A stretch of DNA of 64,000 nt from Minisyncoccota bacterium (GTDB taxonomy: Bacteria > Patescibacteriota > Minisyncoccia > Phycocordibacterales > UBA918). Made by a program: the position numbers and the translations under genes. The first letter of the stretch is position 1. The number at the start of each line of letters is the position of its first letter. The notes under the pieces were generated by a model. The model saw only the letters and a program-made list of their open reading frames with translations, was not told where the DNA came from and did not search any database. The stretch lies in the NCBI GenBank assembly GCA_021734905.1, contig JAIPIB010000003.1, forward strand, positions 1,334 through 65,333, read 5' to 3'. Of the stretch, positions 6,175 through 30,847 are shown piece after piece.

Positions 6175-8991
6175 TTAGAGACGAGCAAGAACAGACTCTT
6201 CCTCTCTAACATGCAAACCAAGGAGAAGGAGGACGAGACCAATGGCCGCTATCGCAATCGACGCTATAGCAAAGAGAGCGTTTGTTCTGAAAAATGACGG
6301 ATCTGCTTGAACGGTAATTTTTTCAGTTACTGCCGCATTGGTATACGCCTCAGCTGTCTTAACAAATGGAAGTGGGTTACTTCGCGCCACAACATATCCG
6401 GCGTTGTCCGTTATTCCTGCATACACCTCATGTGTACCATTCTCAAGTTCTTTATCAAGAATGTAACTCCATCCACCATCACTATCTGTTCGTACTGTCA
6501 CAACAATTGGAGTACTATAGATATAAAGCGTAACAAAACTATTTGGTAAAGCTCGCCCTGAAATAATTGCCCGTTTTGGAGTTTCGAGGCCTGTGAGATC
6601 AACGTTGTCTGATAACGCTGTTATCGACTCAACAACAAGAAGATCCTCACGAGTAATTCCTGAATCTTTCGGTGACTCGTAGACTACAAGCGCCTCACTG
6701 CTGCTGTCGTGTGGATTATAGCCCCGTGCGATTTCTGAACCATCCGTAAAACCATCCCCATCCGTGTCAGCAGAAAATGGATTCGTATTATATAGATTTA
6801 CTTCGTCGTAATCAGAAATCTCATCCTTATCTGAGTCCAGTATGACAGCATCTCCAATTCGTTCTTTAAGTATTGCTTCATTTTTTATTGTTACTTCTTC
6901 AAGTTGCGCAGTAACTTGAGAAATGTATGAATTAACATCATTAGCAACACTTTTTCGCTCGTCTTCTTGATTAAAATTTCTTAGTGCATCCTGTTGTATT
7001 TCCTTGATACTCTCCTTAACGCGCTGGCGCTCGTTTTCACTACCAGATCGTTCCGCTTTTGCAAGATCATTAAGCTTACTGTGAAGTGACGACCTGTAGT
7101 CAGTCAAAATTGTTTGGATTTCTGACTTTATCTCATCATCTGCTTCAACAGAATTTATAAATGAATTGACAGCTTGTACATACACTACTTTTGGTGGAGC
7201 TGACTGATCATTATTAGTGACTGAAATGATTTCTGATGCGACTTTAGCTTGTGATTCATCTTTAAATGAAATAAGGGAATCGTCAGCTTTTGTTAGAGTT
7301 TCGATTTTTAATTCCTGCTCAGGAGTAAACGTAGACATCAGCTCATTGTGTACTGTAACCTGACTTTTGCTACCTTCTATAAAGCCATACGGAGATTTAA
7401 CACGTGCGTAGACATCATAATCGCCGTTTGGTGACTCTTTTGTAATCCAAGTATATTTCCATTCTGATGAAGAGACTCTTCTTGCTAGGCCAAGAAATTG
7501 TGCCGTCAATGAACTTCTTGGTTTTGCAAAAATCTCTACTGAATCAACCCTAGGAGCAGTTACAATAATATCAACATAGCCTGAAAACGGACTTTTTTTA
7601 GAGAAATCAATTCCAACACTAGGTTTTAAAAAATCAGTTGAGCTAGAAACTTTTTGCACATACTTCTCCTCGGGCTTTACAATCTCTGTAAGGGTAACAA
7701 CAGGTGACAAAGCCTCAATTTCATTCTTGACAATTACTGTCTTAAGAAGACTCTGGCGAGACTCGTTATTAACAACAGCATGTGCAGTTATCTCAAAACG
7801 TCCGTTTGGAACCTTCTTTGTATTCCAAGTTAAGTGCCAATAATCAGTATCGGAACGAGTGGCAGAGCCTACAAAGTAAGGCGTTCGCGTCTTTTCTCCC
7901 CGAGCATATACTTTTATCTCAGATGCCTCATTAGCCAATATCTTCAAAAGGATACTATTAGAAAGATACCTATCGTTGGGCAAAATAAGGAGAACTTGGT
8001 CTTTATGTTCATTTATTTCAGGGACCATCAAAGGTTCATCATTTTCAACTTGTTTAGTGCCTCCATCGTCATAATTCTGCGTTGTTGTTGCAATTTTCTC
8101 TATTGAATCATCAGTGATTTTTACTAATTCAGAATTAATTTTGTCCTGATTCGTATTGTCCATAATACCATTCTCATCTTTAGGCTCCTCTCTAGGGGAA
8201 ATAATTTCAGGAAGCTTATTCGCCACTGAATATATTGCCGAATCAATCTGCTCATATGAACCATGTAAATTTTTTATAACAGTTCTGAGATTATATTCAC
8301 CATTATCATACTGTCGAGTATCCCAAAGTGATTTCCAATTATTATTATCAATCCGCACCGCAGAGCCAACAGGAATCAAACGGCCATCCTTTTTTCTTTC
8401 TGCAATAAGTTTTACCTCACTTGCGTTACCTACGGAAACAGTAACAGGGACGACATTTGCAAACGGAGTGCCTGTCCCTGGTGAAAGCCTTACAGCAGGT
8501 TGTGTCTCAGTATTCAAGATTCTTGAGGTATCAATGATACCAATAAAATTTGCCTGCTGTGCAGTCCGCGTATAATTCGCACCACTCATGCGACTTTCGG
8601 TTGTTACTTCGGGATCAACAATGTACTGAAGATTCAAAAGTGAAAAAAAGGTCCCTGCGAGTACAAAAAATACACCTGCTATTCTTGCTGCAAGAGCAAC
8701 TGTTTTTGTGTTAAGAGATGGGAATCTGTAAGGCGACAAACAAACAATTTGTAACTGTGCCTTTGTAATCAATTTTTCCTTACTCTTCTTAACAGAGTTA
8801 TCAGTAATTACAATTTTAGGATTCTGTGTACTTTTTAAAAGTTTTACATTAATTTTTTTCTTTGTCTTGACCTTAGCAACATCAATTTTAACCGAAGCAG
8901 TACTTTCTTTTTTTCGAGTTTTTTTCGCCCGCGTTGGCACAGTTTTCGTAATTGCACGTACTGCGGGGCCTTTCTTAGCTTTTACAACCAT
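6175..8991 (-). CDS. large membrane protein with basic N-terminal tail, extracytoplasmic region and thrombospondin-type-3-like Ca-binding repeat
   Basis: 938 aa; KK/RK-rich N-terminus then TM; DTDGDGFTDGSEIARGYNP motif; C-terminal TM (ALFAIASIAIAAIGLVLLLLGL). Confidence 0.5.
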   Translation of the reverse strand: MVVKAKKGPAVRAITKTVPTRAKKTRKKESTASVKIDVAKVKTKKKINVKLLKSTQNPKIVITDNSVKKSKEKLITKAQLQIVCLSPYRFPSLNTKTVALAARIAGVFFVLAGTFFSLLNLQYIVDPEVTTESRMSGANYTRTAQQANFIGIIDTSRILNTETQPAVRLSPGTGTPFANVVPVTVSVGNASEVKLIAERKKDGRLIPVGSAVRIDNNNWKSLWDTRQYDNGEYNLRTVIKNLHGSYEQIDSAIYSVANKLPEIISPREEPKDENGIMDNTNQDKINSELVKITDDSIEKIATTTQNYDDGGTKQVENDEPLMVPEINEHKDQVLLILPNDRYLSNSILLKILANEASEIKVYARGEKTRTPYFVGSATRSDTDYWHLTWNTKKVPNGRFEITAHAVVNNESRQSLLKTVIVKNEIEALSPVVTLTEIVKPEEKYVQKVSSSTDFLKPSVGIDFSKKSPFSGYVDIIVTAPRVDSVEIFAKPRSSLTAQFLGLARRVSSSEWKYTWITKESPNGDYDVYARVKSPYGFIEGSKSQVTVHNELMSTFTPEQELKIETLTKADDSLISFKDESQAKVASEIISVTNNDQSAPPKVVYVQAVNSFINSVEADDEIKSEIQTILTDYRSSLHSKLNDLAKAERSGSENERQRVKESIKEIQQDALRNFNQEDERKSVANDVNSYISQVTAQLEEVTIKNEAILKERIGDAVILDSDKDEISDYDEVNLYNTNPFSADTDGDGFTDGSEIARGYNPHDSSSEALVVYESPKDSGITREDLLVVESITALSDNVDLTGLETPKRAIISGRALPNSFVTLYIYSTPIVVTVRTDSDGGWSYILDKELENGTHEVYAGITDNAGYVVARSNPLPFVKTAEAYTNAAVTEKITVQADPSFFRTNALFAIASIAIAAIGLVLLLLGLHVREEESVLARL

Positions 8992-16167: not shown

Positions 16168-16737
16168 CTACCTCAAGATTAATTCAACGTATTCTTGCAG
16201 TTCATCGTTTGATAGAACTCCCCTTTTGTGTCCAACAAGTATCCCATCTCTGTTATAGAACAGTGTCTCTGGCATTGCATATCCTTCGACTGCCTTATAG
16301 AAATGGTCGCTTTGATCAGCTATAACAACAAGCCCTTCAGGAGTACCAATGAAAGCAAGATACGCTTTCATTGTACTGAGACTCTCCATTCTATTTATTG
16401 CTAAAATCTCGACAGACTCACCTTTTTTCTTCTTCACTTCTGACAAAAGGAGTAACTCAGACTGCGAAAATGGAATCCAGCTTGCCCACGAATTAATGAT
16501 AAGTGGCTTTCCCTTGAAACTAACTAGTTCAATTATTTCACCGTTAATATCTGTATATGGAGAAGCAACGTCGGGATCAATCATCTTAAGGTCATCTGAC
16601 AGACCTGAAAAAATACCTCGTGAAGTCGTATATGAATAGGTTAGATAGCCCGTAATTATAAGAATTCCAACAAGTAAGGAGAGTGTCTTCCAATTATCTT
16701 TAAGTTTCTCTTGCATATCAGGAAACAAGTGCCTCAA
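16168..16737 (-). CDS. thioredoxin-fold TlpA/ResA-like protein lacking the CXXC active site
   Basis: N-terminal TM; GKPLIINSWASWIPFSQSEL occupies the position of the FWASWCxPC motif but both Cys are replaced (I and S). Confidence 0.55.
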   Translation of the reverse strand: MRHLFPDMQEKLKDNWKTLSLLVGILIITGYLTYSYTTSRGIFSGLSDDLKMIDPDVASPYTDINGEIIELVSFKGKPLIINSWASWIPFSQSELLLLSEVKKKKGESVEILAINRMESLSTMKAYLAFIGTPEGLVVIADQSDHFYKAVEGYAMPETLFYNRDGILVGHKRGVLSNDELQEYVELILR

Positions 16738-17285
16738 CCTTTAATAAATAATTCAAAATCCTCTGGAACTTCTCCTTGTAAGGCAGGGACAAGATTGAGG
16801 TCAACAGTTCGTCCATTGAAAGTTGCAGTTATGAGAGCATCCTCATCAGCATCAAATGGAACACTGAAACGCTGAGGTGTAATGACGTCTGCGCAAGATT
16901 CAGCATGATTGATTACCTCAAAGTCAACAGTTACTTGATTTGAGACGACTCCTCCACTTCGAGTAGACCAATTGAGGAGATCACAAGGTGTGGGCATAAT
17001 AATTTCACCAACAATTGTATGCCTTGGAGTAATATAGTAGTGCTTTGCATCAATTCGGGTAATATTTTTATATGGAGAATCACTATCGACAACTTCCGTA
17101 ATTTGAGTTGGCTTCGCTTCTTCAATTTCTGCACGCTTTAAAAATGCAAACACAAACATTCCTGTAATAATAAGTGCTAATACAACCACTGAAGCAACAA
17201 TGCCTTTATGTTCCATAATAATATTTTTAGATAAATAATAAGTTAGTTCATTATACCACCAACAAGCTTGATCCACTGAATACAA
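16734..17285 (-). CDS. hypothetical membrane-anchored protein (true start probably at the internal MEHKGIVA)
   Basis: single N-terminal TM (IVASVVVLALIITGMFVFAFL), extracytoplasmic C-terminal domain with 2 Cys. Confidence 0.4.
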   Translation of the reverse strand: MYSVDQACWWYNELTYYLSKNIIMEHKGIVASVVVLALIITGMFVFAFLKRAEIEEAKPTQITEVVDSDSPYKNITRIDAKHYYITPRHTIVGEIIMPTPCDLLNWSTRSGGVVSNQVTVDFEVINHAESCADVITPQRFSVPFDADEDALITATFNGRTVDLNLVPALQGEVPEDFELFIKG

Positions 17286-17286
17286 T

Positions 17287-18597
17287 CTATTCTACTACAG
17301 ATCCGTCCTTTATTGTCGTTTCGACGTCTCCGTTGTTAATAATAACTTTATAGTTATCGTGTTTCTCTGTAGCTTTTCCGATGTATAGGGTTGCCGTAAT
17401 AAATATTCCAATAAGGATACAGATAGAGATGAAGAACATTTTATATTTCAAAACAAATTCAACAATAATTCTAACTACTCCTTTTGACTCATCCATTTTA
17501 CGAAGTTGCTGGCGTAGGTCCAAGACACCATCATGAATAGGTGCTGCCATGCGGCGATAAAAAATTCTTTCATTTCGGTTCTCAAATTTATTGTCAGTAC
17601 CAATACTCAATTCTGATTGTTTATGGCCCACATCCACACCAGCCAAGGTAAGCATCCGCCGTACATAGGCCTTAACCATCCAAACAATGAGCGCAACAAA
17701 TAATGCAATAATGGCCAGCGTAAGTAACGTTATTTTCACGGGGATAACCCAAAAATATGCTATCGATGTGACACTCATTATCTCATCTACTCCATACGCA
17801 AGTGTCGCGACGGCCTTATATCTTCCTATATCTGTAATGTTGAACTGGCTTTCCCAGGTAAATTGAAATTCACGGATACTTTGCGGTAAAACATTTCCAA
17901 AATGCGTCTGGTAATTTATGGGAATTATTCCTCGTTGGGTCCCCCACATATTAGTTATAATAATGTCGCCACGGGGCTGTAAATGTACATTGCCTTTATT
18001 TTCAAATCTCAAGATGAAATCTGTCTTTGGCTTCTCGATAAAGGTGTCGATTGCTCGAAATTCTCTTATATTTCCAAGCTCGGATACATCTCCCTCAATT
18101 CGTAAAAAAAATAATGTCGTTACCGCTTGTGATGTTCGCACAGCCATTTTTTGACCATCAGATGCGGGGGGTTCTGTCGAAATCAGTATTGCAGCATAGT
18201 GCCCACCAGGTGGTGCGTCTGGGGGAATCTCTACGAAAAATGAAATTTCTTTGCTTTGCTCAGGTTCAATAACTTGCGGATCTTTTGATATTTGAATCCA
18301 TGATGCAAAACTTGTCCTTGTTAAGTCTTCATCAATGAGTGGAACAAACTTACCTTCCCCATTTTCCCCCGTTGCCTTAAAATTTACAACTTCTGCATAA
18401 ACTGTAAGTGGATATGAATTTCCATTCACCACCTTTACGCTACTCTGCCAAATATCTCCAGGGAGTGCTGAAAGTTGAAAAAGTGGCGGAGTGACGCTTA
18501 AAATTTGGCTTTCTTGTGCAAACACACTAATCACAGGAAATAATGTCGCCGTAAGCGCAAGTGTGAAAATTGAAATTTGAAGTATAGATGTACGCAT
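17287..18597 (-). CDS. secreted/cell-surface protein, paralogue of 18597..19664, with extra C-terminal TM segments
   Basis: signal peptide; C-terminal block FWVIPVKITLLTLAIIALFVALIVWMVKAY matches FYVFPIKLILTILSIVILIVGAFAWYSHKRY of its neighbour; DUF916/DUF3324-like architecture (tentative). Confidence 0.5.
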   Translation of the reverse strand: MRTSILQISIFTLALTATLFPVISVFAQESQILSVTPPLFQLSALPGDIWQSSVKVVNGNSYPLTVYAEVVNFKATGENGEGKFVPLIDEDLTRTSFASWIQISKDPQVIEPEQSKEISFFVEIPPDAPPGGHYAAILISTEPPASDGQKMAVRTSQAVTTLFFLRIEGDVSELGNIREFRAIDTFIEKPKTDFILRFENKGNVHLQPRGDIIITNMWGTQRGIIPINYQTHFGNVLPQSIREFQFTWESQFNITDIGRYKAVATLAYGVDEIMSVTSIAYFWVIPVKITLLTLAIIALFVALIVWMVKAYVRRMLTLAGVDVGHKQSELSIGTDNKFENRNERIFYRRMAAPIHDGVLDLRQQLRKMDESKGVVRIIVEFVLKYKMFFISICILIGIFITATLYIGKATEKHDNYKVIINNGDVETTIKDGSVVE

Positions 18598-19664
18598 TAT
18601 TTTTTCTTTAAATCTATATCGTGATCTTTTGCTTCACTTAACGAACCTCTAACATGGACCATTAAATGTTCGCTATCATCTATAGACTCCGAATCAAAAT
18701 ATCTTTTGTGAGAATACCATGCAAAGGCACCCACGATAAGAATTACAATCGAAAGTATGGTCAAGATTAACTTAATTGGAAATACATAAAAGTAACTTGT
18801 ATCCTGCAGTGATGCCCGAGGAGACGAACCGTACTCTACGGTAAGAAATGCTTTGTATTTACCAAACATGCCCTCTGTTGGGACATTCGACACAAAATCA
18901 TATGCACCTCCTGGTGGAATCGTTACATTTTCATCATTAATTGTGAGCGATGCGACCTCCTGCCCCTTTCCATCATAGATAATGATTTCACCAGTTGGTG
19001 TAAGAACTTGATCACCTGGATTCTTAAAAGAATATAGAGCAGCCTCATTATCAGCCTTAGTTACAAAACGATTTATGAAAAATTTTGAAAGTTTTAAAAA
19101 TTCTACTTTCTTTTCACGAATTGTCACCGTGACCACAGTACCTGGAGCTTGTCCGTTTTTTACTTGTTTCTCAGCTTCATTACGATTGTCACCATTACCA
19201 AAACCGATAAATGCATGGTAGGTGCCTGGAACTGCCTGGGGATTGATCCTAAGAGTGAGATCGATTACCTCAACTTTTCCTCGAGGAAGATCAATCCCCT
19301 TTCTACTAATCTCTATCCATGACGCAAGTGACTGCGTACGATCGCTTTCAACTGGTGATAAAAATTCTTCTATGGCACCTTCCTCGCTACGCGAAATATT
19401 GTTAACTGTTGGATAAATAGTCACCGGTTCTCCTCCAATATTTGTGATCGTAATTGCTTTTTTGATTATATCGCGTGACTCGACTATTGAGTCAATCACG
19501 AGAGGTGTTACAGAATACTCTGGAGCCGCCTGTATATGTGCATGCGGAATAGAAAAAATGACTACGCAAGAAATAAATATTTTTTTAAGAAGGCTGTAAA
19601 TCATATCTACATTAAAACATTGGGACGGAGATATATCTAATATTATTCTCATACAAACCCGCAT
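18597..19664 (-). CDS. secreted/cell-surface protein with C-terminal TM anchor and charged tail (DUF916/DUF3324-like, tentative)
   Basis: signal peptide MRIILDISPSQ...AHIQA, beta-rich ectodomain, C-terminal TM + KK tail; paralogue of the upstream gene. Confidence 0.5.
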   Translation of the reverse strand: MRVCMRIILDISPSQCFNVDMIYSLLKKIFISCVVIFSIPHAHIQAAPEYSVTPLVIDSIVESRDIIKKAITITNIGGEPVTIYPTVNNISRSEEGAIEEFLSPVESDRTQSLASWIEISRKGIDLPRGKVEVIDLTLRINPQAVPGTYHAFIGFGNGDNRNEAEKQVKNGQAPGTVVTVTIREKKVEFLKLSKFFINRFVTKADNEAALYSFKNPGDQVLTPTGEIIIYDGKGQEVASLTINDENVTIPPGGAYDFVSNVPTEGMFGKYKAFLTVEYGSSPRASLQDTSYFYVFPIKLILTILSIVILIVGAFAWYSHKRYFDSESIDDSEHLMVHVRGSLSEAKDHDIDLKKK

Positions 19665-21099
19665 CTTGCAAATCTCTTACTAAGATGCGGAAGACAATAT
19701 CTGTCGTTTCACCAGTAACTGGTTGAGAACTATATGACACTTCTTCTGGCGTTGTTGTGCTCAAACGAGCGTACGTGTCAATTGCCGAAAACCTCGTTGC
19801 GTCTCCTTGAAGGGTAGCATCTGTCGTATGATAACCAAAACAGCTTGTTGAAGATGCGTGACAGGCGGCACTCCATGCAGATGGTGCTGCGTTAGTACTG
19901 GAAATTTGTTTTATAACTACTCCTGACGAACTAACCAGATCACCATCCATCGCCATAAGTATTTGATGCCCTTGCGTTCCGTTTGAATCAACGACCAAAC
20001 GATGAGCGCCTTCTACAAAAGTATTAAGTGGAACCTTACCAAATGGTACGGATGTTGGTGTCGTATCGATATCAAGTGTTACTCCAGCAATTACCGTTGA
20101 CGAGGCCACAGCATCCATTGTAAATTGCAAACTCGCTCCCTCTGTTGCAAGAGACGGGTACGATTCTCCTGAATTTGTAAAGACAGGAATATCCTGAGCG
20201 AGACCGTACAGCCTGAAATAGTAGATTTGGTTAACTCGAGGTCCTGCTGACTTAATTGTGAATTCATACTCAGTTGATGCACCTCCTTTGTGTCTAAATC
20301 CTGTGAGATTATCTGATGATTCATTATGAGTTCCACATCCATCACCTATTCCTGAAGCACAGCTGTCAGCATCAGAAATAACTTTTGTAGAGATGACAGC
20401 ATTATCAACACCTCCTCCATCTGCATAACACCAAGTTGATGTAGCGAGGCACGTTGATGAAGCGACGACGTCAAATGGTATAGAGAAATTAGCATACTCT
20501 GAGTACTGAAGTTTGAAACGAACATCGTCACGAGAAATATTTTCCGTCTCCTTAACTGTTACCCTCAATTTCACGATTTGTCCATTTGTAATATCAACCG
20601 GGGTTACATTCTCATTGGCAAGTGGGGTACTTGGTGTCTCATTTGTTTCGTCATCGTAAAACCTCCAATTCTGTGATTTTGGTGTAAAACTAGAAGTACG
20701 TATTTGAGGGTAGTTTGAGTAGATGTCGAGTTTTGTCCCATCCACATCCACCATTCTAAAGCAGTAGTATGTCTCAGCTGTTGCGCCATAGATAGCAGCA
20801 ACGACAATTGAACGATCTTTCGGAGTAACCGAACGATCAACAACAAGGACATCCCCGTCAAATATTTTTGCACCTTGCATAGAATCACCTTCTACGCGCA
20901 CGAAAAACGTTGATGCTGGATGTTTGACGACCAGATCATTAATATCCAAGACCTTTTCAATCAAATCATCGCCAGGGGCAGGAAAACCTGCCTGCGGTCT
21001 AGAACTAAACAATGGAAGCTCTAAATCACTATCTTGAATACCAATTCCTTCAAGTACCACAACATTTGCCTCGTGCCTTTTTATGCTTTTTTCTTTCAT
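19612..21099 (-). CDS. fusion protein: N-terminal LexA/UmuD-type S24 peptidase domain + ~360-aa Thr/Ser/Gly-rich C-terminal domain
   Basis: AGFPAPGDD...HPASTFFVRVEGDSMQGAKIFDGDVLVVDRS aligns with the UmuD/LexA S24 core (GFPSPA...GDSM...DGD). No signal peptide. Continuous 495-aa ORF overlapping the downstream gene by ~50 nt. Confidence 0.6.
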   Translation of the reverse strand: MKEKSIKRHEANVVVLEGIGIQDSDLELPLFSSRPQAGFPAPGDDLIEKVLDINDLVVKHPASTFFVRVEGDSMQGAKIFDGDVLVVDRSVTPKDRSIVVAAIYGATAETYYCFRMVDVDGTKLDIYSNYPQIRTSSFTPKSQNWRFYDDETNETPSTPLANENVTPVDITNGQIVKLRVTVKETENISRDDVRFKLQYSEYANFSIPFDVVASSTCLATSTWCYADGGGVDNAVISTKVISDADSCASGIGDGCGTHNESSDNLTGFRHKGGASTEYEFTIKSAGPRVNQIYYFRLYGLAQDIPVFTNSGESYPSLATEGASLQFTMDAVASSTVIAGVTLDIDTTPTSVPFGKVPLNTFVEGAHRLVVDSNGTQGHQILMAMDGDLVSSSGVVIKQISSTNAAPSAWSAACHASSTSCFGYHTTDATLQGDATRFSAIDTYARLSTTTPEEVSYSSQPVTGETTDIVFRILVRDLQDAGLYENNIRYISVPMF

Positions 21100-26860: not shown

Positions 26861-27526
26861 CTAGAAGCGCAAATAAGTATTTCCAAAATTAGTCTTTATT
26901 CTAATAATTCCTAGTAATCCTAGAAATGTAACAAAAGCTATACCGCGAGAAGTTTTTGATCTAAAGAGGTCTCTATAAAAATTTTGTATAGATTCTGAAA
27001 AACCTTGAAAATCTCCAGCAATAACACTTGCAATCATGGATGGAATTTTTTGTTTGTCTTTATGTCCGTTCTCTCGATCATCATTCTTCTTTTCGTTCTG
27101 ACCTTCATCGATATTTTCTTTCTTCAAATCATCCTCAACAGCAATTTTCTTTATTGGCTTTATCAATGCATCTGTAGCAATCTTTTTGTACGGTGACTCA
27201 GAAACCTCGCTATAAATAAATGGCCGTGCATCAACTGTCGTTGTTGCTTGTGTCGATTTTTTTGAGCTACTTTGAGTATTACTGGTTGACACTGTCGGTG
27301 AAACAGGCGATGTCTGTACATACGTCTTGCCATTATTTGCCGTAAGCTTAAAATTTATAGAAGACATCCCGACGTTTTTTGATACGCCAACTGTATGTTG
27401 CGTAAGTGTGAAATTTGTACTTGAAAGTACTGCATGGACAGTGTGATATGGAATACTTACCAAACACAAAAGACCAAATGCGGCTCCCAATAAACCTTTT
27501 ATTCTATATTCGCTGCCCTGAAACAT
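26861..27526 (-). CDS. Ser/Thr-rich secreted protein with C-terminal TM anchor
   Basis: signal peptide, STSNTQSSSKKSTQATTT tract, C-terminal hydrophobic segment. Confidence 0.4.
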   Translation of the reverse strand: MFQGSEYRIKGLLGAAFGLLCLVSIPYHTVHAVLSSTNFTLTQHTVGVSKNVGMSSINFKLTANNGKTYVQTSPVSPTVSTSNTQSSSKKSTQATTTVDARPFIYSEVSESPYKKIATDALIKPIKKIAVEDDLKKENIDEGQNEKKNDDRENGHKDKQKIPSMIASVIAGDFQGFSESIQNFYRDLFRSKTSRGIAFVTFLGLLGIIRIKTNFGNTYLRF

Positions 27527-27527
27527 A

Positions 27528-29612
27528 TTATATGTTTAGATTTTCAGACGCCGCCTCATCCACAACTTCATTCTCAGCATTCACTGTCTGCACTTCTTCA
27601 ATAACTTCCTCCACAACTACTTCCTGAAGATATGTATCTTCTATACTCTCTTCATCACTTAGAGCATCTTCAGATACCTCTAAAACCTCTTCAATTTCCT
27701 GAACAGGTTCACTGCTTGCCGCAGGAACCTCCTCTTTCATCTTCTCTATAAGATTTCGATCTTCTTGATGCAGTTTCTTGAGATTTTCAATTTCATTTCT
27801 AAGTATGCGCACATCGTTTTCAAGTCTTTCGGTTCGTGCAAAATAATTTTCTACTTTTGCATTGAGTTCTTTAATTGCTTCAACAACAACAGCGATAATA
27901 TTTCGTGTGTTAACTGAAAGATACTGACCACCGTCACGGACGACCTCAGGAAGTATCAATTGGAGTTCTTGTGCAATAAATCCAATTTCCGTTTGTTCAC
28001 CAAATCGTTCTTTGTCCCTCCACTCATAGCGGACTCCGCGAAGTTTTAAGACGGTATCAAGCGCATTATCAATACCGTGAATATTTTTCTTAAGATTTTC
28101 ATCTGATGGATCTCGTATAATATTTCCATTTGCATCCGTTGTAAGATTTGTCGCGCCTCCCTCAAGATCTGAGGACTGTATTGAACCACGCACAGTTAAC
28201 GTTGGAATTCCGAAATTAATATCACCAGTATTAATGCTCACATCAGGATCATTGAAACTATCTCCATTATTCGTGGTAAATCTAAGGTCTGCAGGAGTCG
28301 TGAGGCTCACGTACATTTCATCCGTTCCAAGCCCCTGCAAATCAAACGTTAAATCATTGGGTAGAGAGGAGTCATAGAGAAGTGACAAGACATCTTCGTC
28401 TGTTCCAAAGCTGAAACCGGAAGTATCTCCAACCTTTAGTCCAGCCTCAAAATATGAAACATCTCCACTCTCAACATAAAATGCCCCTGCAAAAGAATTA
28501 ATTGTATCTTCTAAGTTCGTAAAGCTTGATGCACTAATTTCTCCACTTGAAACAGTAAGCCCACCTGAGAGGACCTGCACACCACTTAACATATTAATAT
28601 TGAAAAATTGGTCAAATCCTTCGCCCAGAGCAGTACTTGTAAGTGTCACATTCCCTATTCCACCAGATCCACCAAGTAAAAATGATGGGCCGTTTAACGG
28701 GTCATCTCCCTCAACGCCGACAGCATTTGCAATAAGCTTGAGTGAACCGGGAGTTTTAATATTCACAACATTATTTACTATGGCGTTGCCGTACATTCCA
28801 ATCATAAGGTCATTCATTCCGAGGTTTTCGTCAGCGGTGTTTGTAAAAAGAGAAAGCCCCCCTGTGGTGGTTCCAAATAATACCCCCTTTCCATCTGCAA
28901 ATTGAATATTCCCAGCAAAATACGAGTTCTCAGGGCTGAGCATTTTGAACACCCCATTATTAAGCACAGAGAGCATTTGCGTACCTCCGCTCACTATATT
29001 AAGAAGATCCCCTTCACCTTGCTGATTGAGTGTAAAGAGTGTACTAGCACTAGAAGTGCTCAGATTAAAAAGATGCCCAGCACGTAAAAATGCTGATGCT
29101 TGAAGACCGTCTAAGAGATCACTATTAATTGCATATCCAGACGAACCAAGACGCTCTCGTGGTGTCATTTCAGTGTCACTTCCAACTTTCATTCCGAGAT
29201 AATAAGTGTCATCATTAAAATCAAGATCATCGAACTCATTCCCAATACCTGACCCAAGCATCACCTGAAACGAACCATTGGACACATCTACGGAAGGGTA
29301 AATACCCTCCCACAAAACAGTACCTGTTGCAGCTTCGTCATATATTTTAAATACCATATCATACGACCCTGTAAGTTGTGATCCACTAGAATTAGCTAAA
29401 GTTCCTGAAAAAGGAATCTGTGCATTTATACCAACACCTGCAAATGTACTACTCGGAAATATGAAAACAAGAAAACCAAGAATGAGAAAAATGAGCACGC
29501 GATGTAAATCAAAAGACTGTGCTGGCATACTACTATCATACGACTCGCCACAATAAAGACAAGAATTATCTCTGTGGTGTAACCTTTGATCAGGTATGTC
29601 AATGCCAGTCAT
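27528..29612 (-). CDS. cell-surface fibre protein with C-terminal peptidase-S74 intramolecular chaperone auto-processing domain and acidic coiled-coil tail
   Basis: N-terminal TM/signal; Gly-rich fibre region; SDENLKKNIHGIDN...LRGVRYEWRD...GFIAQELQLILPEVV matches the S74/endosialidase-chaperone catalytic Ser-Lys motif (SDxxLKxNI). Confidence 0.7.
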   Translation of the reverse strand: MTGIDIPDQRLHHRDNSCLYCGESYDSSMPAQSFDLHRVLIFLILGFLVFIFPSSTFAGVGINAQIPFSGTLANSSGSQLTGSYDMVFKIYDEAATGTVLWEGIYPSVDVSNGSFQVMLGSGIGNEFDDLDFNDDTYYLGMKVGSDTEMTPRERLGSSGYAINSDLLDGLQASAFLRAGHLFNLSTSSASTLFTLNQQGEGDLLNIVSGGTQMLSVLNNGVFKMLSPENSYFAGNIQFADGKGVLFGTTTGGLSLFTNTADENLGMNDLMIGMYGNAIVNNVVNIKTPGSLKLIANAVGVEGDDPLNGPSFLLGGSGGIGNVTLTSTALGEGFDQFFNINMLSGVQVLSGGLTVSSGEISASSFTNLEDTINSFAGAFYVESGDVSYFEAGLKVGDTSGFSFGTDEDVLSLLYDSSLPNDLTFDLQGLGTDEMYVSLTTPADLRFTTNNGDSFNDPDVSINTGDINFGIPTLTVRGSIQSSDLEGGATNLTTDANGNIIRDPSDENLKKNIHGIDNALDTVLKLRGVRYEWRDKERFGEQTEIGFIAQELQLILPEVVRDGGQYLSVNTRNIIAVVVEAIKELNAKVENYFARTERLENDVRILRNEIENLKKLHQEDRNLIEKMKEEVPAASSEPVQEIEEVLEVSEDALSDEESIEDTYLQEVVVEEVIEEVQTVNAENEVVDEAASENLNI

Positions 29613-29655
29613 TCTGCATTCTATGACTAAAAACTGACCTCTGCTCAGGCGATCC

Positions 29656-30273
29656 CTAATACCAAACTGGCGTACAACTAACAGATCTCTGGTTAAAGCA
29701 ACCGCATCCAGAACACCACGAGCTTGAGCCCGCTATCGATTCATTACAATAATTTATCGAGGACTGATTGCCCGTACACGGAAAGCTTGAAACACAACCT
29801 GATTGAAGATTGGGACATTGGTAATGCCTAAGTGTTGGCGGCGGCGCTGGAGGAAACGATGTGTAACATGTCGATCCAATGCAAAAACGTGATGCCGTCA
29901 CACTATTTACACCAGAAATACTATTCCCGTTCATATTCAAATTCATAGTTGCAGTATGGTTCCCAAGATTATCAGTCCCTCCCCCTAATTCACTCATCCA
30001 CTTACCAGCTACCGTTGAATAAATATCATTCGCCGTTACATTACCTGCAGTGGTAAGACTTCCTGCAGTAAAATCACCAGTCTTCGTCTGTGCAGTTGCA
30101 CTTGTGTTAATTGGCGCACTCACATTACCACTGGGCGGTGGAAGATTTGGTGGTGTCCACGTGGTAGCAAACACATATGAAATACTGAATGCAAATATAA
30201 GAACTATTGCTGAGACGAATGATGTTTTGTGGGGTTTATTGAGCATAATCATTTTCAAAAACTTGGATCTCAC
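29656..30273 (-). CDS. secreted protein with Cys-rich C-terminal module (13 Cys in the last ~70 aa)
   Basis: signal peptide (FVSAIVLIFAFSISYVFA), Pro-rich linker, then FCIGSTCYTS...CPNLQSGCVSSFPCTGN...CNESIAGSSSWCSGCGCFNQRSVSC. Confidence 0.45.
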   Translation of the reverse strand: MRSKFLKMIMLNKPHKTSFVSAIVLIFAFSISYVFATTWTPPNLPPPSGNVSAPINTSATAQTKTGDFTAGSLTTAGNVTANDIYSTVAGKWMSELGGGTDNLGNHTATMNLNMNGNSISGVNSVTASRFCIGSTCYTSFPPAPPPTLRHYQCPNLQSGCVSSFPCTGNQSSINYCNESIAGSSSWCSGCGCFNQRSVSCTPVWY

Positions 30274-30847
30274 TTGCAGTGAATTCCTTTATATCTTTTA
30301 TATTTTCAATTGCTGTAATCGTAATGAGATTGCCGACTTGTATATTGCTAACTTCAGTAGGAATCAGTGAAAACGGTGTTGGTGGAGTTGGGAGAGATGT
30401 TGCTCCTATACTTGATGTGGCAACTGCAAAAGCTTCCATCTCTGCTCGCATAACCTCCTGACTTTTTTGTACGAGTGCCAGAATTTTCGTATTAGGGCCG
30501 ATAACAATAATACGCTCATTGAGTTCTGGATCTTCAAAAGGACTTAGAGAATTTACCCGTACTGAAATAAGGTTCTCCTTAATCTCAGTGACATTCCCAG
30601 AAACCGACCGAATATCATCAGAAGTAATGAACACACTGCCGAGATTGCTGTCTAAAACTCTTTTCTTTGCAGCGTCAAAACCTTCTTGATAATAGGATTC
30701 GGGTGAACGAGATTCTTCCTGTTGAAGAGGAGGCTCTTTGAAGTATAAAAACGTTAAACCTATGCCTATGATGAGGCCAAGAAACACTAGTAATATGTTA
30801 AAAAACATATGGTACGGGTGCGTATGTACATCCTGTTGATTCAACAT
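30236..30847 (-). CDS. hypothetical membrane-anchored protein; first gene of the fibre operon
   Basis: N-terminal TM (FFNILLVFLGLIIGIGLTFLYF), 203 aa. Confidence 0.4.
   Translation of the reverse strand: MLNQQDVHTHPYHMFFNILLVFLGLIIGIGLTFLYFKEPPLQQEESRSPESYYQEGFDAAKKRVLDSNLGSVFITSDDIRSVSGNVTEIKENLISVRVNSLSPFEDPELNERIIVIGPNTKILALVQKSQEVMRAEMEAFAVATSSIGATSLPTPPTPFSLIPTEVSNIQVGNLITITAIENIKDIKEFTASEIQVFENDYAQ

What the first reader, a model, noticed from the sequence alone, without database searches (positions are those of the whole stretch)
26861..30847. Cell-surface fibre operon: membrane-anchored fibre with peptidase-S74 intramolecular chaperone, plus Cys-rich secreted partner
The 694-aa protein has an N-terminal anchor, a long Gly/Ser/Thr-rich beta region and a C-terminal module containing SDENLKKNIHGIDNALDTVLKLRGVRYEWRD...GFIAQELQLILPEVV. 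This is essentially the canonical catalytic Ser-Lys motif and downstream blocks of the endosialidase/tail-fibre intramolecular chaperone (peptidase S74). An acidic coiled-coil tail follows. S74 domains normally mature trimeric phage tail fibres; here the protein is host-membrane anchored. It is flanked by a membrane-anchored unknown, a secreted protein with a 13-Cys C-terminal module and a Ser/Thr-rich anchored protein, with no other phage genes in view. It is a candidate attachment-fibre system (plausible for an episymbiont) or a domesticated phage fibre.
Basis: partly seen in the sequence, partly recalled or inferred. Interest (0 to 1): 0.65.

Follow-up and report, generated by a model that had tools for sequence, protein, structure and literature searches.

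The report
Bdellovibrio-type surface fibre in an ultrasmall bacterium
A chromosomal gene of a candidate-phyla-radiation (Patescibacteria) bacterium encodes a secreted, phage-tail-fibre-like protein built like the prey-binding "MAT" fibres of the predator Bdellovibrio, always followed by a small membrane protein that may tether it to the cell.

Summary
The core observation holds. The ORF 27528-29612(-) carries a genuine Peptidase_S74 chaperone domain (Pfam E 2.8e-17) with an invariant SDxxxK Ser-Lys motif. No phage gene lies anywhere in the 64 kb.

The interpretation needs three corrections.
1. The N-terminal hydrophobic stretch looks like a cleavable Sec signal peptide, not an anchor. The likely start is M29, giving 666 aa.
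2. The first ~120 mature residues form a conserved beta-sandwich domain. It is homologous to the N-terminal domain of Bdellovibrio "mosaic adhesive trimer" (MAT) fibres, though below NCBI's curated cut-off. The domain has 18,836 relatives (50%-identity cluster representatives), with mosaic tips, and none was found in phages.
3. The four genes are not a conserved operon. Only the fibre and the downstream 221-aa gene travel together. They are adjacent, 11 nt overlap to 46 nt gap, in 11 loci, eight of them orthologous chromosomal loci. The Cys-rich gene (10 Cys, not 13) and the 203-aa gene are specific to this genome.

The partner has a signal peptide, a doubled SSTN(F/Y)xL strand motif at its mature N-terminus, an acidic linker and a C-terminal membrane helix.

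Best reading: a vertically inherited, secreted trimeric adhesion fibre matured by S74 self-cleavage. Tethering by the partner is inferred, not shown.

The parts
27528..29528 (-). Fibre gene, probable true extent (666 aa from M29; the mechanical ORF runs to 29612)
   Evidence: ORF list. An identical 666-aa database protein, P0001, is named 'tail fiber domain-containing protein, Candidatus Pacebacteria'. Homologue N-termini align to M29.
29439..29528 (-). Predicted Sec signal peptide (MPAQSFDLHRVLIFLILGFLVFIFPSSTFA | GVGIN)
   Evidence: Among relatives, position -4 relative to the I of the conserved IN dipeptide is Ala in 91 of 122. Position -6 is A/V/T/S. 121 of 122 have a (-3,-1) site within 4 residues of the domain start. 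This is inferred from sequence; no signal-peptide predictor was available.
29073..29438 (-). Conserved N-terminal beta-sandwich domain (MAT-N-like) at the mature N-terminus
   Evidence: Mean pairwise identity among 16 orthologues is 61%, against 25% for the shaft. It hits NCBIfam NF053851 Bdello_MAT_N at E 4.2e-5 and 23 bits, below the cut-off of 60. 37 of 63 relatives hit the same model, best E 2.7e-10. There are 18,836 cluster representatives with E<=1e-3, nearly all with the domain at about residues 25-160. The AlphaFold2 model is a beta-sandwich with pLDDT 80 and pTM 0.73. There is no close PDB or viral fold match.
28107..29072 (-). Variable Gly/Ser/Thr/Asn-rich beta shaft and tip (presumed trimeric)
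   Evidence: 43% G+S+T+N and 25% identity among orthologues with large insertions and deletions. Residues 294-588 align at under 30% identity to phage L-shaped and other tail fibres. The monomer AlphaFold2 model is poor here. I expected that for an obligate trimer, but did not test it.
27759..28106 (-). S74 intramolecular chaperone / self-cleaving domain with C-terminal helix. Catalytic Ser503 is at 28104-28106 and Lys508 at 28089-28091.
   Evidence: Pfam PF13884. S/D/K are invariant. Sequence matches to solved chaperone domains: tail fibres 8jov and 6f45, and the myelin regulatory factor domain 7dc3, at profile E 1e-10. A helix is predicted at residues 541-599 of the 666-aa form.
27531..27758 (-). 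Acidic, poorly conserved C-terminal tail (would be released with the chaperone domain)
   Evidence: 25 D/E against 3 K/R in 76 residues. 16% identity among orthologues, but a tail of this kind is present in all.
26861..27526 (-). Partner gene (221 aa): signal peptide, doubled SSTN(F/Y)xL motif (27329-27430), acidic or low-complexity linker, C-terminal membrane helix plus basic tail (26864-26947)
   Evidence: It starts 1 nt after the fibre stop codon. Homologues lie immediately downstream of the fibre gene in L001, L003, L004, L005, L006, L008, L009, L021, L023 and L024. Profile E-values run from 1e-90 to 4e-11. Hydrophobic segments occur only at the two ends.
29535..29562 (-). Promoter-like site (TTGTCT-16-TATGAT) ending 7 nt before the M29 ATG
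   Evidence: Consensus scan only, and the number of sites in the region is no higher than in shuffles. If real, the fibre-partner pair has its own promoter and a nearly leaderless mRNA.
29656..30273 (-). Neighbour, not part of the conserved module: secreted 205-aa protein with a 10-Cys C-terminal module
   Evidence: Absent from all related loci. No Pfam, PHROG or NCBIfam hit and no phage hit. Its N-terminal module is shared with a 590-aa fibre-like CPR protein in L018.
30236..30847 (-). Neighbour, not part of the conserved module: 203-aa protein with one N-terminal membrane helix
   Evidence: No family hit. Absent from related loci.

Best explanation
The locus is a two-gene chromosomal module of a Patescibacteria (CPR) bacterium. 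It encodes a MAT-type (mosaic adhesive trimer) surface fibre and a dedicated membrane partner.

Proposed sequence of events:
1. The fibre precursor is exported by Sec and its signal peptide is removed. This is inferred from the family-wide A-x-A site.
2. Outside the membrane, the C-terminal S74 domain drives trimerisation of the beta-rich shaft. It then cuts itself off at Ser503 using Lys508, releasing the chaperone domain together with its coiled coil and acidic tail. This follows from established S74 biochemistry (endosialidase, phage T5 fibre, Bdellovibrio Bd3182); the motif is present, but cleavage was not tested here.
3. The variable distal end is thereby exposed as the binding tip. The conserved N-terminal beta-sandwich stays near the cell.
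4. The partner is a type-I membrane protein with a C-terminal membrane helix, a long flexible acidic linker and two conserved beta-strand motifs at its mature N-terminus. I propose it holds the fibre's N-domain and so tethers the fibre through the cell wall. The mechanism could be strand complementation, as proposed for PamR in CPR Pam pili. This step is inferred from gene linkage and architecture only.

The likely role is contact with, or recognition of, the host cell or another surface. This is an inference from the MAT precedent and from the episymbiotic lifestyle of cultivated Patescibacteria.
For: S74 domain and dyad.

Cellular and vertically inherited:
- The order (methyltransferase)-fibre-partner-peroxiredoxin-small ORF-cold-shock protein-161 aa-RsuA-HI0933 flavoprotein recurs in eight genomes, at 40-57% fibre identity.
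- The whole 64-kb window is housekeeping.

MAT-type architecture:
- Signal peptide followed directly by the conserved ~120-aa beta-rich domain.
- A significant hit to Bdello_MAT_N for this protein and for 37 of 63 relatives.
- Relatives carry mosaic tips: 23 of 63 have S74, others collagen, Ig-like, CBM, GDSL or propeller domains.

Partner linkage:
- It is adjacent in all 11 loci examined that contain it, spaced from an 11-nt overlap to a 46-nt gap.
- The pair recurs with different neighbours in L021. There it sits next to a PilB-like ATPase, TsaE and PolA.
- L023 and L024 differ only partly from the orthologous arrangement.
- The conserved parts of the partner are its N-terminal motif and its membrane helix. 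The conserved parts of the fibre are the N-domain and S74.

Precedent for an N-terminal strand plus C-terminal helix tether in CPR: PamR (bioRxiv 10.64898/2026.03.03.709456).
Against: - The N-domain score against the curated Bdellovibrio model is 23 bits, well below the 60-bit cut-off, and covers only profile positions 13-76 of 162. Homology is therefore at superfamily level.
- Trimerisation, cleavage, surface display and any fibre-partner contact are untested. The full-length monomer model is poor (pLDDT 48.6), and no multimer prediction was possible.
- The partner was not detected beside two more distant N-domain proteins (L013, L014). It is rare in the 5.8-billion-protein database (five hits). 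It therefore cannot be a general MAT anchor.
- Most of the 11 loci are orthologous, so adjacency there could partly reflect shared ancestry.
- Signal-peptide cleavage is inferred from sequence rules, not from a trained predictor.
Confidence: 0.6

Rival explanations
1. The fibre is exported and matured as above but is not tethered by the partner. The partner would be an assembly or export helper, a cell-wall spacer or an unrelated envelope protein. The fibre would bind another surface element, such as cell wall or a Pam-type or type IV pilus, or be released.
For: - In Bdellovibrio the surface element that holds MAT N-domains is unknown, and pili were suggested as candidates.
- The window has a Pam-pilus-like cluster 6-10 kb away.
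- A preprint reports a 'tail fibre-like protein' co-localising with pam operons across CPR.
- The partner is absent next to distant N-domain proteins.
Against: - The pair is tightly spaced in all 11 loci, including L021 with different flanks.
- The partner's topology is what a tether needs: an N-terminal extracellular motif, a long linker and a C-terminal membrane helix.
Confidence: 0.25
2. One reading: the fibre is anchored in the cell's own membrane by its uncleaved N-terminal helix (a signal anchor).
For: The hydrophobic stretch is long, about 17 residues (VLIFLILGFLVFIFPSS). No signal-peptide predictor could be run.
Against: A small-residue signal-peptidase site directly precedes the conserved domain in 121 of 122 relatives, and Ala is at position -4 in 91 of 122. 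Bdellovibrio MATs are described as carrying signal peptides.
Confidence: 0.08
3. A remnant phage, tailocin or prophage tail fibre that happens to sit in the chromosome.
For: S74 and the shaft resemble phage fibres. NCBI's pipeline names it 'tail fiber domain-containing protein'.
Against: - No phage gene in 64 kb.
- Composition at the locus (GC 0.37-0.42) is within the window's range.
- The same housekeeping synteny recurs in eight genomes.
- The N-domain has no match in 50,697 phage genomes, in 2.9 million viral contigs (a pattern-based scan) or in viral structure models.
- A Sec signal peptide is not a feature of virion fibres (general knowledge).
Confidence: 0.03
4. A secreted enzyme, such as a polysaccharide depolymerase in the manner of endosialidase, rather than an adhesin.
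For: S74 domains mature endosialidases and other tailspike depolymerases (established knowledge). One distant S74 homologue, P0017, carries a pectate-lyase-like domain.
Against: No catalytic domain is detected in this protein or its 15 close homologues. The shaft is short and highly variable.
Confidence: 0.04

Closest known systems
Bdellovibrio bacteriovorus MAT (mosaic adhesive trimer) fibres, S74 subgroup, e.g. Bd3182 (Caulton et al. 2024, PMC10769870)
   Same: - Signal peptide, then a conserved ~120-130-aa beta-rich N-terminal domain, then a variable beta shaft, then C-terminal S74 with SDxxxK.
- The N-domain has no close solved structural homologue.
- The wider family has swapped tip domains.
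- The genes are chromosomal, in a bacterium that lives on other bacteria.
   Different: - The N-domain is only distantly related (23 bits against a 60-bit cut-off).
- The fibre is about half the length (about 445 mature residues against about 1,000).
- The host is a Patescibacteria bacterium, expected to lack an outer membrane (general knowledge). This phylum is not among those listed for MATs.
- Only one copy lies in this 64-kb window, against 21 in the HD100 genome.
- An extra acidic tail follows the chaperone domain.
- There is a dedicated adjacent partner gene, which the paper does not describe.
Phage tail fibres and tailspikes with a C-terminal intramolecular chaperone (K1F endosialidase, T5 pb1, T4-like distal fibre subunits; PDB 8jov, 6f45)
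   Same: The S74 domain, the Ser-Lys dyad and a beta-rich shaft immediately upstream.
   Different: There is no virion-attachment N-terminus. Instead there is a Sec signal peptide and a bacterial N-domain absent from phages. There is no phage gene context.
Myelin regulatory factor (MYRF) ICA domain (PDB 7dc3)
   Same: A non-viral use of the same self-cleaving trimerisation domain (profile E 1.4e-10).
   Different: MYRF is a eukaryotic membrane-bound transcription factor, and its cleavage releases the N-terminal part from a C-terminal membrane helix. Here there is no hydrophobic segment after S74.
PamR of the CPR Pam pilus (bioRxiv 10.64898/2026.03.03.709456)
   Same: The comparison concerns the partner only. 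Both have a signal peptide, an extra N-terminal beta-strand proposed to insert into the neighbouring subunit, and a C-terminal membrane helix proposed to tether an extracellular filament in a cell without an outer membrane.
   Different: PamR has two FnIII-like domains. The partner here is mostly low-complexity linker with no detectable domain and no sequence similarity to any family. The resemblance is in logic, not homology.

Membership tests
Peptidase S74 / C-terminal intramolecular chaperone domain | Profile match above the curated threshold | tested here: met
   PF13884, 63.2 bits against a cut-off of 22, E 2.8e-17, full-length match 1-58/58.
Peptidase S74 / C-terminal intramolecular chaperone domain | Catalytic Ser and Lys five residues apart (SDxxxK) | tested here: met
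   SDENLK at residues 503-508. S, D and K are invariant in 16 homologues. They align to the equivalent positions of 8jov and MYRF 7dc3.
Peptidase S74 / C-terminal intramolecular chaperone domain | Located C-terminal to a beta-rich fibre and followed by a helical (coiled-coil) segment | tested here: met
   Domain order. A helix is predicted at residues 541-599 of the 666-aa form with pLDDT 64-80. The family profile matches a GCN4-type coiled coil.
Peptidase S74 / C-terminal intramolecular chaperone domain | Trimerisation-dependent autoproteolysis | not testable with these tools
   Needs expression of the C-terminal fragment with and without S503A, as done for Bd3182.
MAT (mosaic adhesive trimer) fibre family | Signal peptide directly followed by the conserved ~130-aa beta-rich N-terminal domain | tested here: met
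   An A-x-A-type site lies 3-4 residues before the domain in 121 of 122 relatives. The domain sits at about residues 25-160 in almost all of the best 150 hits. The AlphaFold2 model is a beta-sandwich.
MAT (mosaic adhesive trimer) fibre family | N-domain homologous to that of Bdellovibrio MATs (NCBIfam NF053851 Bdello_MAT_N) | tested here: inconclusive
   The hit is significant but below the cut-off: E 4.2e-5, 23.4 bits against 60, profile positions 13-76 of 162. 37 of 63 relatives also hit, best E 2.7e-10, and none was shown to reach the cut-off. This supports superfamily-level homology, not membership of the curated Bdellovibrio subfamily.
MAT (mosaic adhesive trimer) fibre family | Mosaic design: conserved proximal end with interchangeable distal tips, S74 or other | tested here: met
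   Of 63 N-domain relatives, 23 end in S74. Others carry collagen, Ig-like, CBM, GDSL-lipase, LVIVD or propeller domains. Lengths range from 119 to 6,031 aa.
MAT (mosaic adhesive trimer) fibre family | Trimeric fibre displayed on the cell surface and involved in contact with another bacterium | not testable with these tools
   No multimer prediction or experiment was available. The monomer model of the shaft is unreliable.
Phage or prophage tail fibre | Encoded among virion structural or lysis genes of a (pro)phage | tested here: not met
   No phage gene in 64 kb. Housekeeping synteny is conserved in eight genomes.
Phage or prophage tail fibre | N-terminal part related to phage fibre or baseplate attachment regions | tested here: not met
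   Phage matches cover only residues 294-588. The N-domain alone gives no match in phage genomes, none in the pattern-based scan of viral contigs, and no significant viral fold match.
Pam pilus anchor PamR (for the partner) | Tandem FnIII / RbmA-like fold | tested here: not met
   No domain was detected in the partner by Pfam, NCBIfam or PHROGs. The region between the motif and the membrane helix is low-complexity and 12% conserved.
Pam pilus anchor PamR (for the partner) | Extra N-terminal beta-strand plus C-terminal membrane helix | tested here: met
   The mature N-terminus carries two SSTN(F/Y)xL strand-like motifs. The only other hydrophobic segment is C-terminal, followed by basic residues, in most of the 11 homologues. 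That these motifs form strands is inferred.

The most novel reading that the evidence does not exclude
The 221-aa partner family is the membrane tether of a MAT-type fibre. Its doubled N-terminal SSTN(F/Y)xL strands would dock into or complete the fibre's N-terminal beta-sandwich. Its C-terminal helix would fix the complex in the cytoplasmic membrane of a cell that has no outer membrane. This would be the first identified surface receptor for the conserved MAT N-domain, which is unknown even in Bdellovibrio. It would also define a host-contact organelle of Patescibacteria distinct from type IV and Pam pili.
Probability: 0.3. Interest if true: 0.7.

Novelty: new variant of a known kind. Interest (0 to 1): 0.5.

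Why it matters
How ultrasmall episymbiotic bacteria recognise and hold their hosts is largely unknown. So far only type IV pili and the newly described Pam pili have been implicated.

This locus points to a lineage of Patescibacteria that keeps, as a stable chromosomal gene pair, a fibre built like those Bdellovibrio uses to recognise prey. That suggests a shared toolkit among bacteria that live on other bacteria.

The N-terminal domain family is very large: 18,836 representatives of clusters at 50% identity. It is absent from Pfam and has no solved structure. The element that holds it on the cell is unknown.

The always-adjacent partner gene gives a concrete, testable candidate for that element in this lineage.

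Tried and rejected
**Prophage or tailocin.** Rejected after annotating about 50 ORFs across the window and after seeing the conserved synteny.

**Four-gene operon.** Rejected. The Cys-rich and 203-aa proteins have no homologue in any related locus. The methyltransferase found upstream elsewhere is absent from the window.

**Full-length AlphaFold2 model.** Unusable apart from the N-domain and the helix (pLDDT 48.6). No fold search was run on it.

**Partner searches.**
- As a single sequence it found only itself.
- As a six-sequence profile it found five proteins. The family is small or evolves too fast for word-seeded search.

**Scans with the N-domain.**
- The genome-collection scan returned only 8 loci because it relies on exact peptide patterns. 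The organism labels there ('Saccharibacteria', 'Gammaproteobacteria' for an 886-kb chromosome) look unreliable.
- The viral-contig scan found nothing.

**Bdellovibrio 'capping loop' motif.** A strict regular expression did not match the 16 close homologues. Looser VGIGxxxPxxxLxV-type motifs are visible in some orthologues but not at that position in the window protein, so nothing rests on this.

**Cluster-member look-up.** It gave almost no names.

**Literature.** No paper in the held library links S74 or MAT fibres to Patescibacteria.

Full report
**1. What is there**

Four minus-strand ORFs occupy 26861-30847. The 694-aa ORF (27528-29612) matches Pfam Peptidase_S74 at residues 503-559, with E 2.8e-17 and 63 bits against a cut-off of 22. 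It also matches the C-terminal ends of more than 30 PHROG tail-fibre families.

The motif SDENLK (28089-28106) supplies the Ser-Lys pair. Ser, Asp and Lys are invariant in 16 homologues. They align with the equivalent positions of a solved tail fibre (8jov) and of the myelin regulatory factor self-cleaving domain (7dc3).

A long helix follows, and then a 76-residue tail with 25 acidic and 3 basic residues. The core observation is therefore correct.

Three details need correction:
- The database copy starts at M29 and is 666 aa. NCBI names it 'tail fiber domain-containing protein, Candidatus Pacebacteria'. Homologue N-termini support that start.
- The Cys-rich neighbour has 10 cysteines, not 13.
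- The 'anchor' is probably not an anchor (section 3).

**2. It is cellular, not phage**

About 50 ORFs across the 64 kb were annotated. They are housekeeping or envelope genes: UvrA, UvrB, Tgt, FKBP, SerRS, Dus, DprA, the DNA polymerase III clamp-loader subunit, topoisomerase I, RelA/SpoT, peroxiredoxins, a cold-shock protein, RsuA, MsrAB and others. The window also holds four tRNA genes. None of the ORFs is a phage gene. GC content at the locus is unremarkable.

The close homologues are 495-856 aa and 40-57% identical over the alignment. They sit in the same chromosomal neighbourhood in seven other metagenome-assembled genomes. The gene order is methyltransferase, fibre, ~200-aa partner, peroxiredoxin, small ORF, cold-shock protein, ~161-aa ORF, RsuA, HI0933-type flavoprotein. 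The gene is therefore vertically inherited in a lineage of Patescibacteria. Source labels name Pacebacteria and Minisyncoccia, and in the genome scan also Saccharibacteria and Kaiserbacteria.

**3. The N-terminus: a signal peptide followed by a MAT-type domain**

The first ~120 mature residues (GINAQIPFxGTL...YYLG...EMTPRERLG...) are the best-conserved part of the protein together with S74. Identity is 61% and 65% respectively, against 25% for the shaft.

A full HMMER scan of 1.84 billion cluster representatives with this segment gave 18,836 hits at E<=1e-3 and 3,140 at E<=1e-10. In nearly all of the best 150 the domain lies at about residues 25-160, in proteins of 119 to 6,031 aa.

In 122 relatives where the start of the domain could be located, position -4 relative to the conserved Ile is Ala in 91, and position -6 is A/V/T/S. 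121 have a (-3,-1) signal-peptidase site within four residues. The window protein reads T-F-A|G-V-G-I-N. The hydrophobic segment is therefore most simply a cleaved Sec signal peptide, and the conserved domain is the mature N-terminus.

The only family model that recognises this domain is NCBIfam NF053851, 'Bdello_MAT_N, mosaic adhesive trimer family chimeric fiber protein'. The hit has E 4.2e-5 and 23 bits against a cut-off of 60, over profile positions 13-76 of 162. Of 63 relatives, 37 hit the same model, best E 2.7e-10.

Of those 63, 23 end in S74. The others end in collagen, Ig-like, carbohydrate-binding, GDSL-lipase or propeller domains.

This is the architecture published for Bdellovibrio MAT fibres. 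They have a signal peptide, a conserved ~130-aa beta-rich domain, a trimeric shaft, and S74 (13 of 21) or other tips. The N-domain there has no PDB homologue and is proposed to bind an unidentified element on the predator surface (PMC10769870). That paper lists MAT-like proteins in Oligoflexia, PVC, Alpha- and Deltaproteobacteria, the FCB group and Omnitrophica, but not in Patescibacteria.

The domain also has no relative in 50,697 phage genomes, and a pattern-based scan of 2.9 million viral contigs found none. Phage similarity of the whole protein is confined to residues 294-588 at under 30% identity.

**4. The real partner**

The 221-aa gene starts 1 nt after the fibre stop codon. A homologue lies directly downstream of the fibre gene in every related locus. 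Spacing ranges from an 11-nt overlap to a 46-nt gap.

More distant versions follow S74 fibres in three further loci:
- L021 (P0175, 368 aa) has different neighbours: a PilB-like ATPase, TsaE and PolA.
- L023 (357 aa) keeps RsuA immediately downstream of the pair.
- L024 (210 aa) keeps the methyltransferase, peroxiredoxin, cold-shock protein and RsuA, with extra genes inserted.

All 11 partners match the partner profile at E 1e-90 to 4e-11. They share one plan:
- a signal peptide;
- two strand-like motifs at the mature N-terminus, [LM][ST]S[TS][NQ][YF]x[LIV] ... G ... [ST]S[TS][NQ][FY]x[LV];
- an acidic or Gly/Ser-rich linker, which in two loci also holds a middle domain;
- a C-terminal hydrophobic helix followed by basic residues.

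The motif and the helix are the conserved parts.

By contrast, the Cys-rich 205-aa and the 203-aa genes have no counterpart in any related locus. The methyltransferase found upstream elsewhere is missing from the window. The conserved unit is therefore two genes, not four.

A promoter-like site ends 7 nt before the M29 ATG. This is weak evidence, but it is consistent with the pair being transcribed on its own.

**5. How it most likely works**

Shown by sequence:
- the domain order;
- the catalytic motif;
- the family-wide signal-peptidase site;
- the gene linkage.

From established S74 biochemistry (endosialidase, T5 fibre, Bd3182): after export, the C-terminal domain nucleates trimer folding of the shaft and then cleaves at Ser503. 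It leaves together with the coiled coil and the acidic tail. The mature fibre would be about 445 residues per chain, with the variable end distal.

Inferred:
- The conserved N-domain is the proximal end.
- The partner is a type-I membrane protein with a long flexible linker and would hold the N-domain by its N-terminal strands.

A CPR precedent for this logic is PamR. It has an extra N-terminal strand predicted to insert into the last pilin, and a C-terminal helix proposed to tether the filament in a cell without an outer membrane.

By analogy with MATs, and given that cultivated Patescibacteria are obligate episymbionts, the fibre would mediate contact with a host cell.

**6. Rivals**

- The partner has another role and the fibre binds something else. 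Candidates are the wall or a pilus. The window has a Pam-like cluster nearby, and a preprint notes a 'tail fibre-like protein' co-localising with pam operons.
- The N-terminal helix is an uncleaved anchor. This is disfavoured.
- A phage remnant. This is disfavoured by sections 2 and 3.
- A depolymerase. No catalytic domain was found.

**7. Comparison and novelty**

The protein works like a MAT fibre of the S74 subgroup and is a distant homologue of that group. It fails the curated cut-off of the Bdellovibrio-specific model, so I do not file it in that subfamily.

What is new:
- the phylum;
- the short form with an acidic tail after the chaperone domain;
- the stable single-copy syntenic locus;
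- above all, the dedicated partner gene.

No paper in the held library connects S74 or MAT fibres with Patescibacteria.

I rate it a new variant of a known kind, with moderate interest (0.5). The identity of the fibre is well supported. The tether hypothesis is attractive but untested.

Noticed in passing
window 16734-21099 (minus strand): Possible Pam-pilus-like cluster. ORFs 17287-18597 (436 aa) and 18597-19664 (355 aa) each have a signal peptide, a beta-rich ectodomain and a C-terminal membrane helix, like the membrane-anchored PapD-like chaperones PamC and PamD of the 2026 CPR pilus preprint. The last 147 residues of ORF 19612-21099 weakly hit NCBIfam CPR_Pam_pilin_C (E 0.0012, 19 bits against 55). 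That preprint reports a 'tail fibre-like protein' co-localising with pam operons in CPR genomes.
   Followed up: partly
window 19612-21099 (minus strand): This 495-aa ORF begins as a UmuD-like S24 peptidase (residues 36-105, E 2.5e-26). It then breaks off and continues in frame into the pilin-like beta-rich region, with no signal peptide of its own. One syntenic relative, L004, has an intact 156-aa UmuD plus UmuC a few genes beyond RsuA. This suggests an insertion into umuDC, a gene fusion or an assembly join.
   Followed up: no
window 29656-30273 (minus strand); L018 5007-6779: The Cys-rich 205-aa protein shares its N-terminal module (signal peptide plus xPPxxPPPxxNxxAPINxSxTAQTKTGDF) with a 590-aa fibre-like CPR protein. 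That protein has repeated NVGIGTxxP motifs and a different C-terminal domain. This hints at a second mosaic family of surface proteins with a constant N-terminal module and swapped tips. Its likely start is an ATG at 30252 or 30246, which reduces the 38-nt overlap with the upstream ORF to 17 or 11 nt.
   Followed up: partly
L001, L004, L005, L006, L008, L009, L024 (gene upstream of, or near, the fibre): A class I SAM-dependent methyltransferase gene immediately precedes the fibre gene in six related genomes and lies one gene further upstream in L024. It is absent from L003. It is also absent from the whole 64-kb window, where the 203-aa and Cys-rich genes take its place. Whether it acts on the fibre is unknown.
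   Followed up: partly
P0024 (629 aa; sequence start): A distant S74 protein begins with a type IV pilin-like N-terminus (MRKLILNQNGISLVEVMVAAGISS...). That would be an S74-terminated fibre fused to a pilin-type leader, another non-phage way of mounting such fibres.
   Followed up: no
L014 4821-7406 and 482-4108 (886-kb chromosome OZ246416.1, labelled 'uncultured Gammaproteobacteria'): An N-domain protein with dozens of NYGGYF repeats and a non-S74 C-terminal domain sits next to a 1,208-aa paralogue-like repeat protein. The small closed chromosome and these proteins suggest that the taxonomic label is wrong and that this is a CPR-type genome.
   Followed up: no
window 6175-8991 (minus strand): A 938-aa protein with bacterial Ig-like (Big_13, Big_7) and TSP3 repeats, which is another candidate surface adhesin in the same window.
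   Followed up: no
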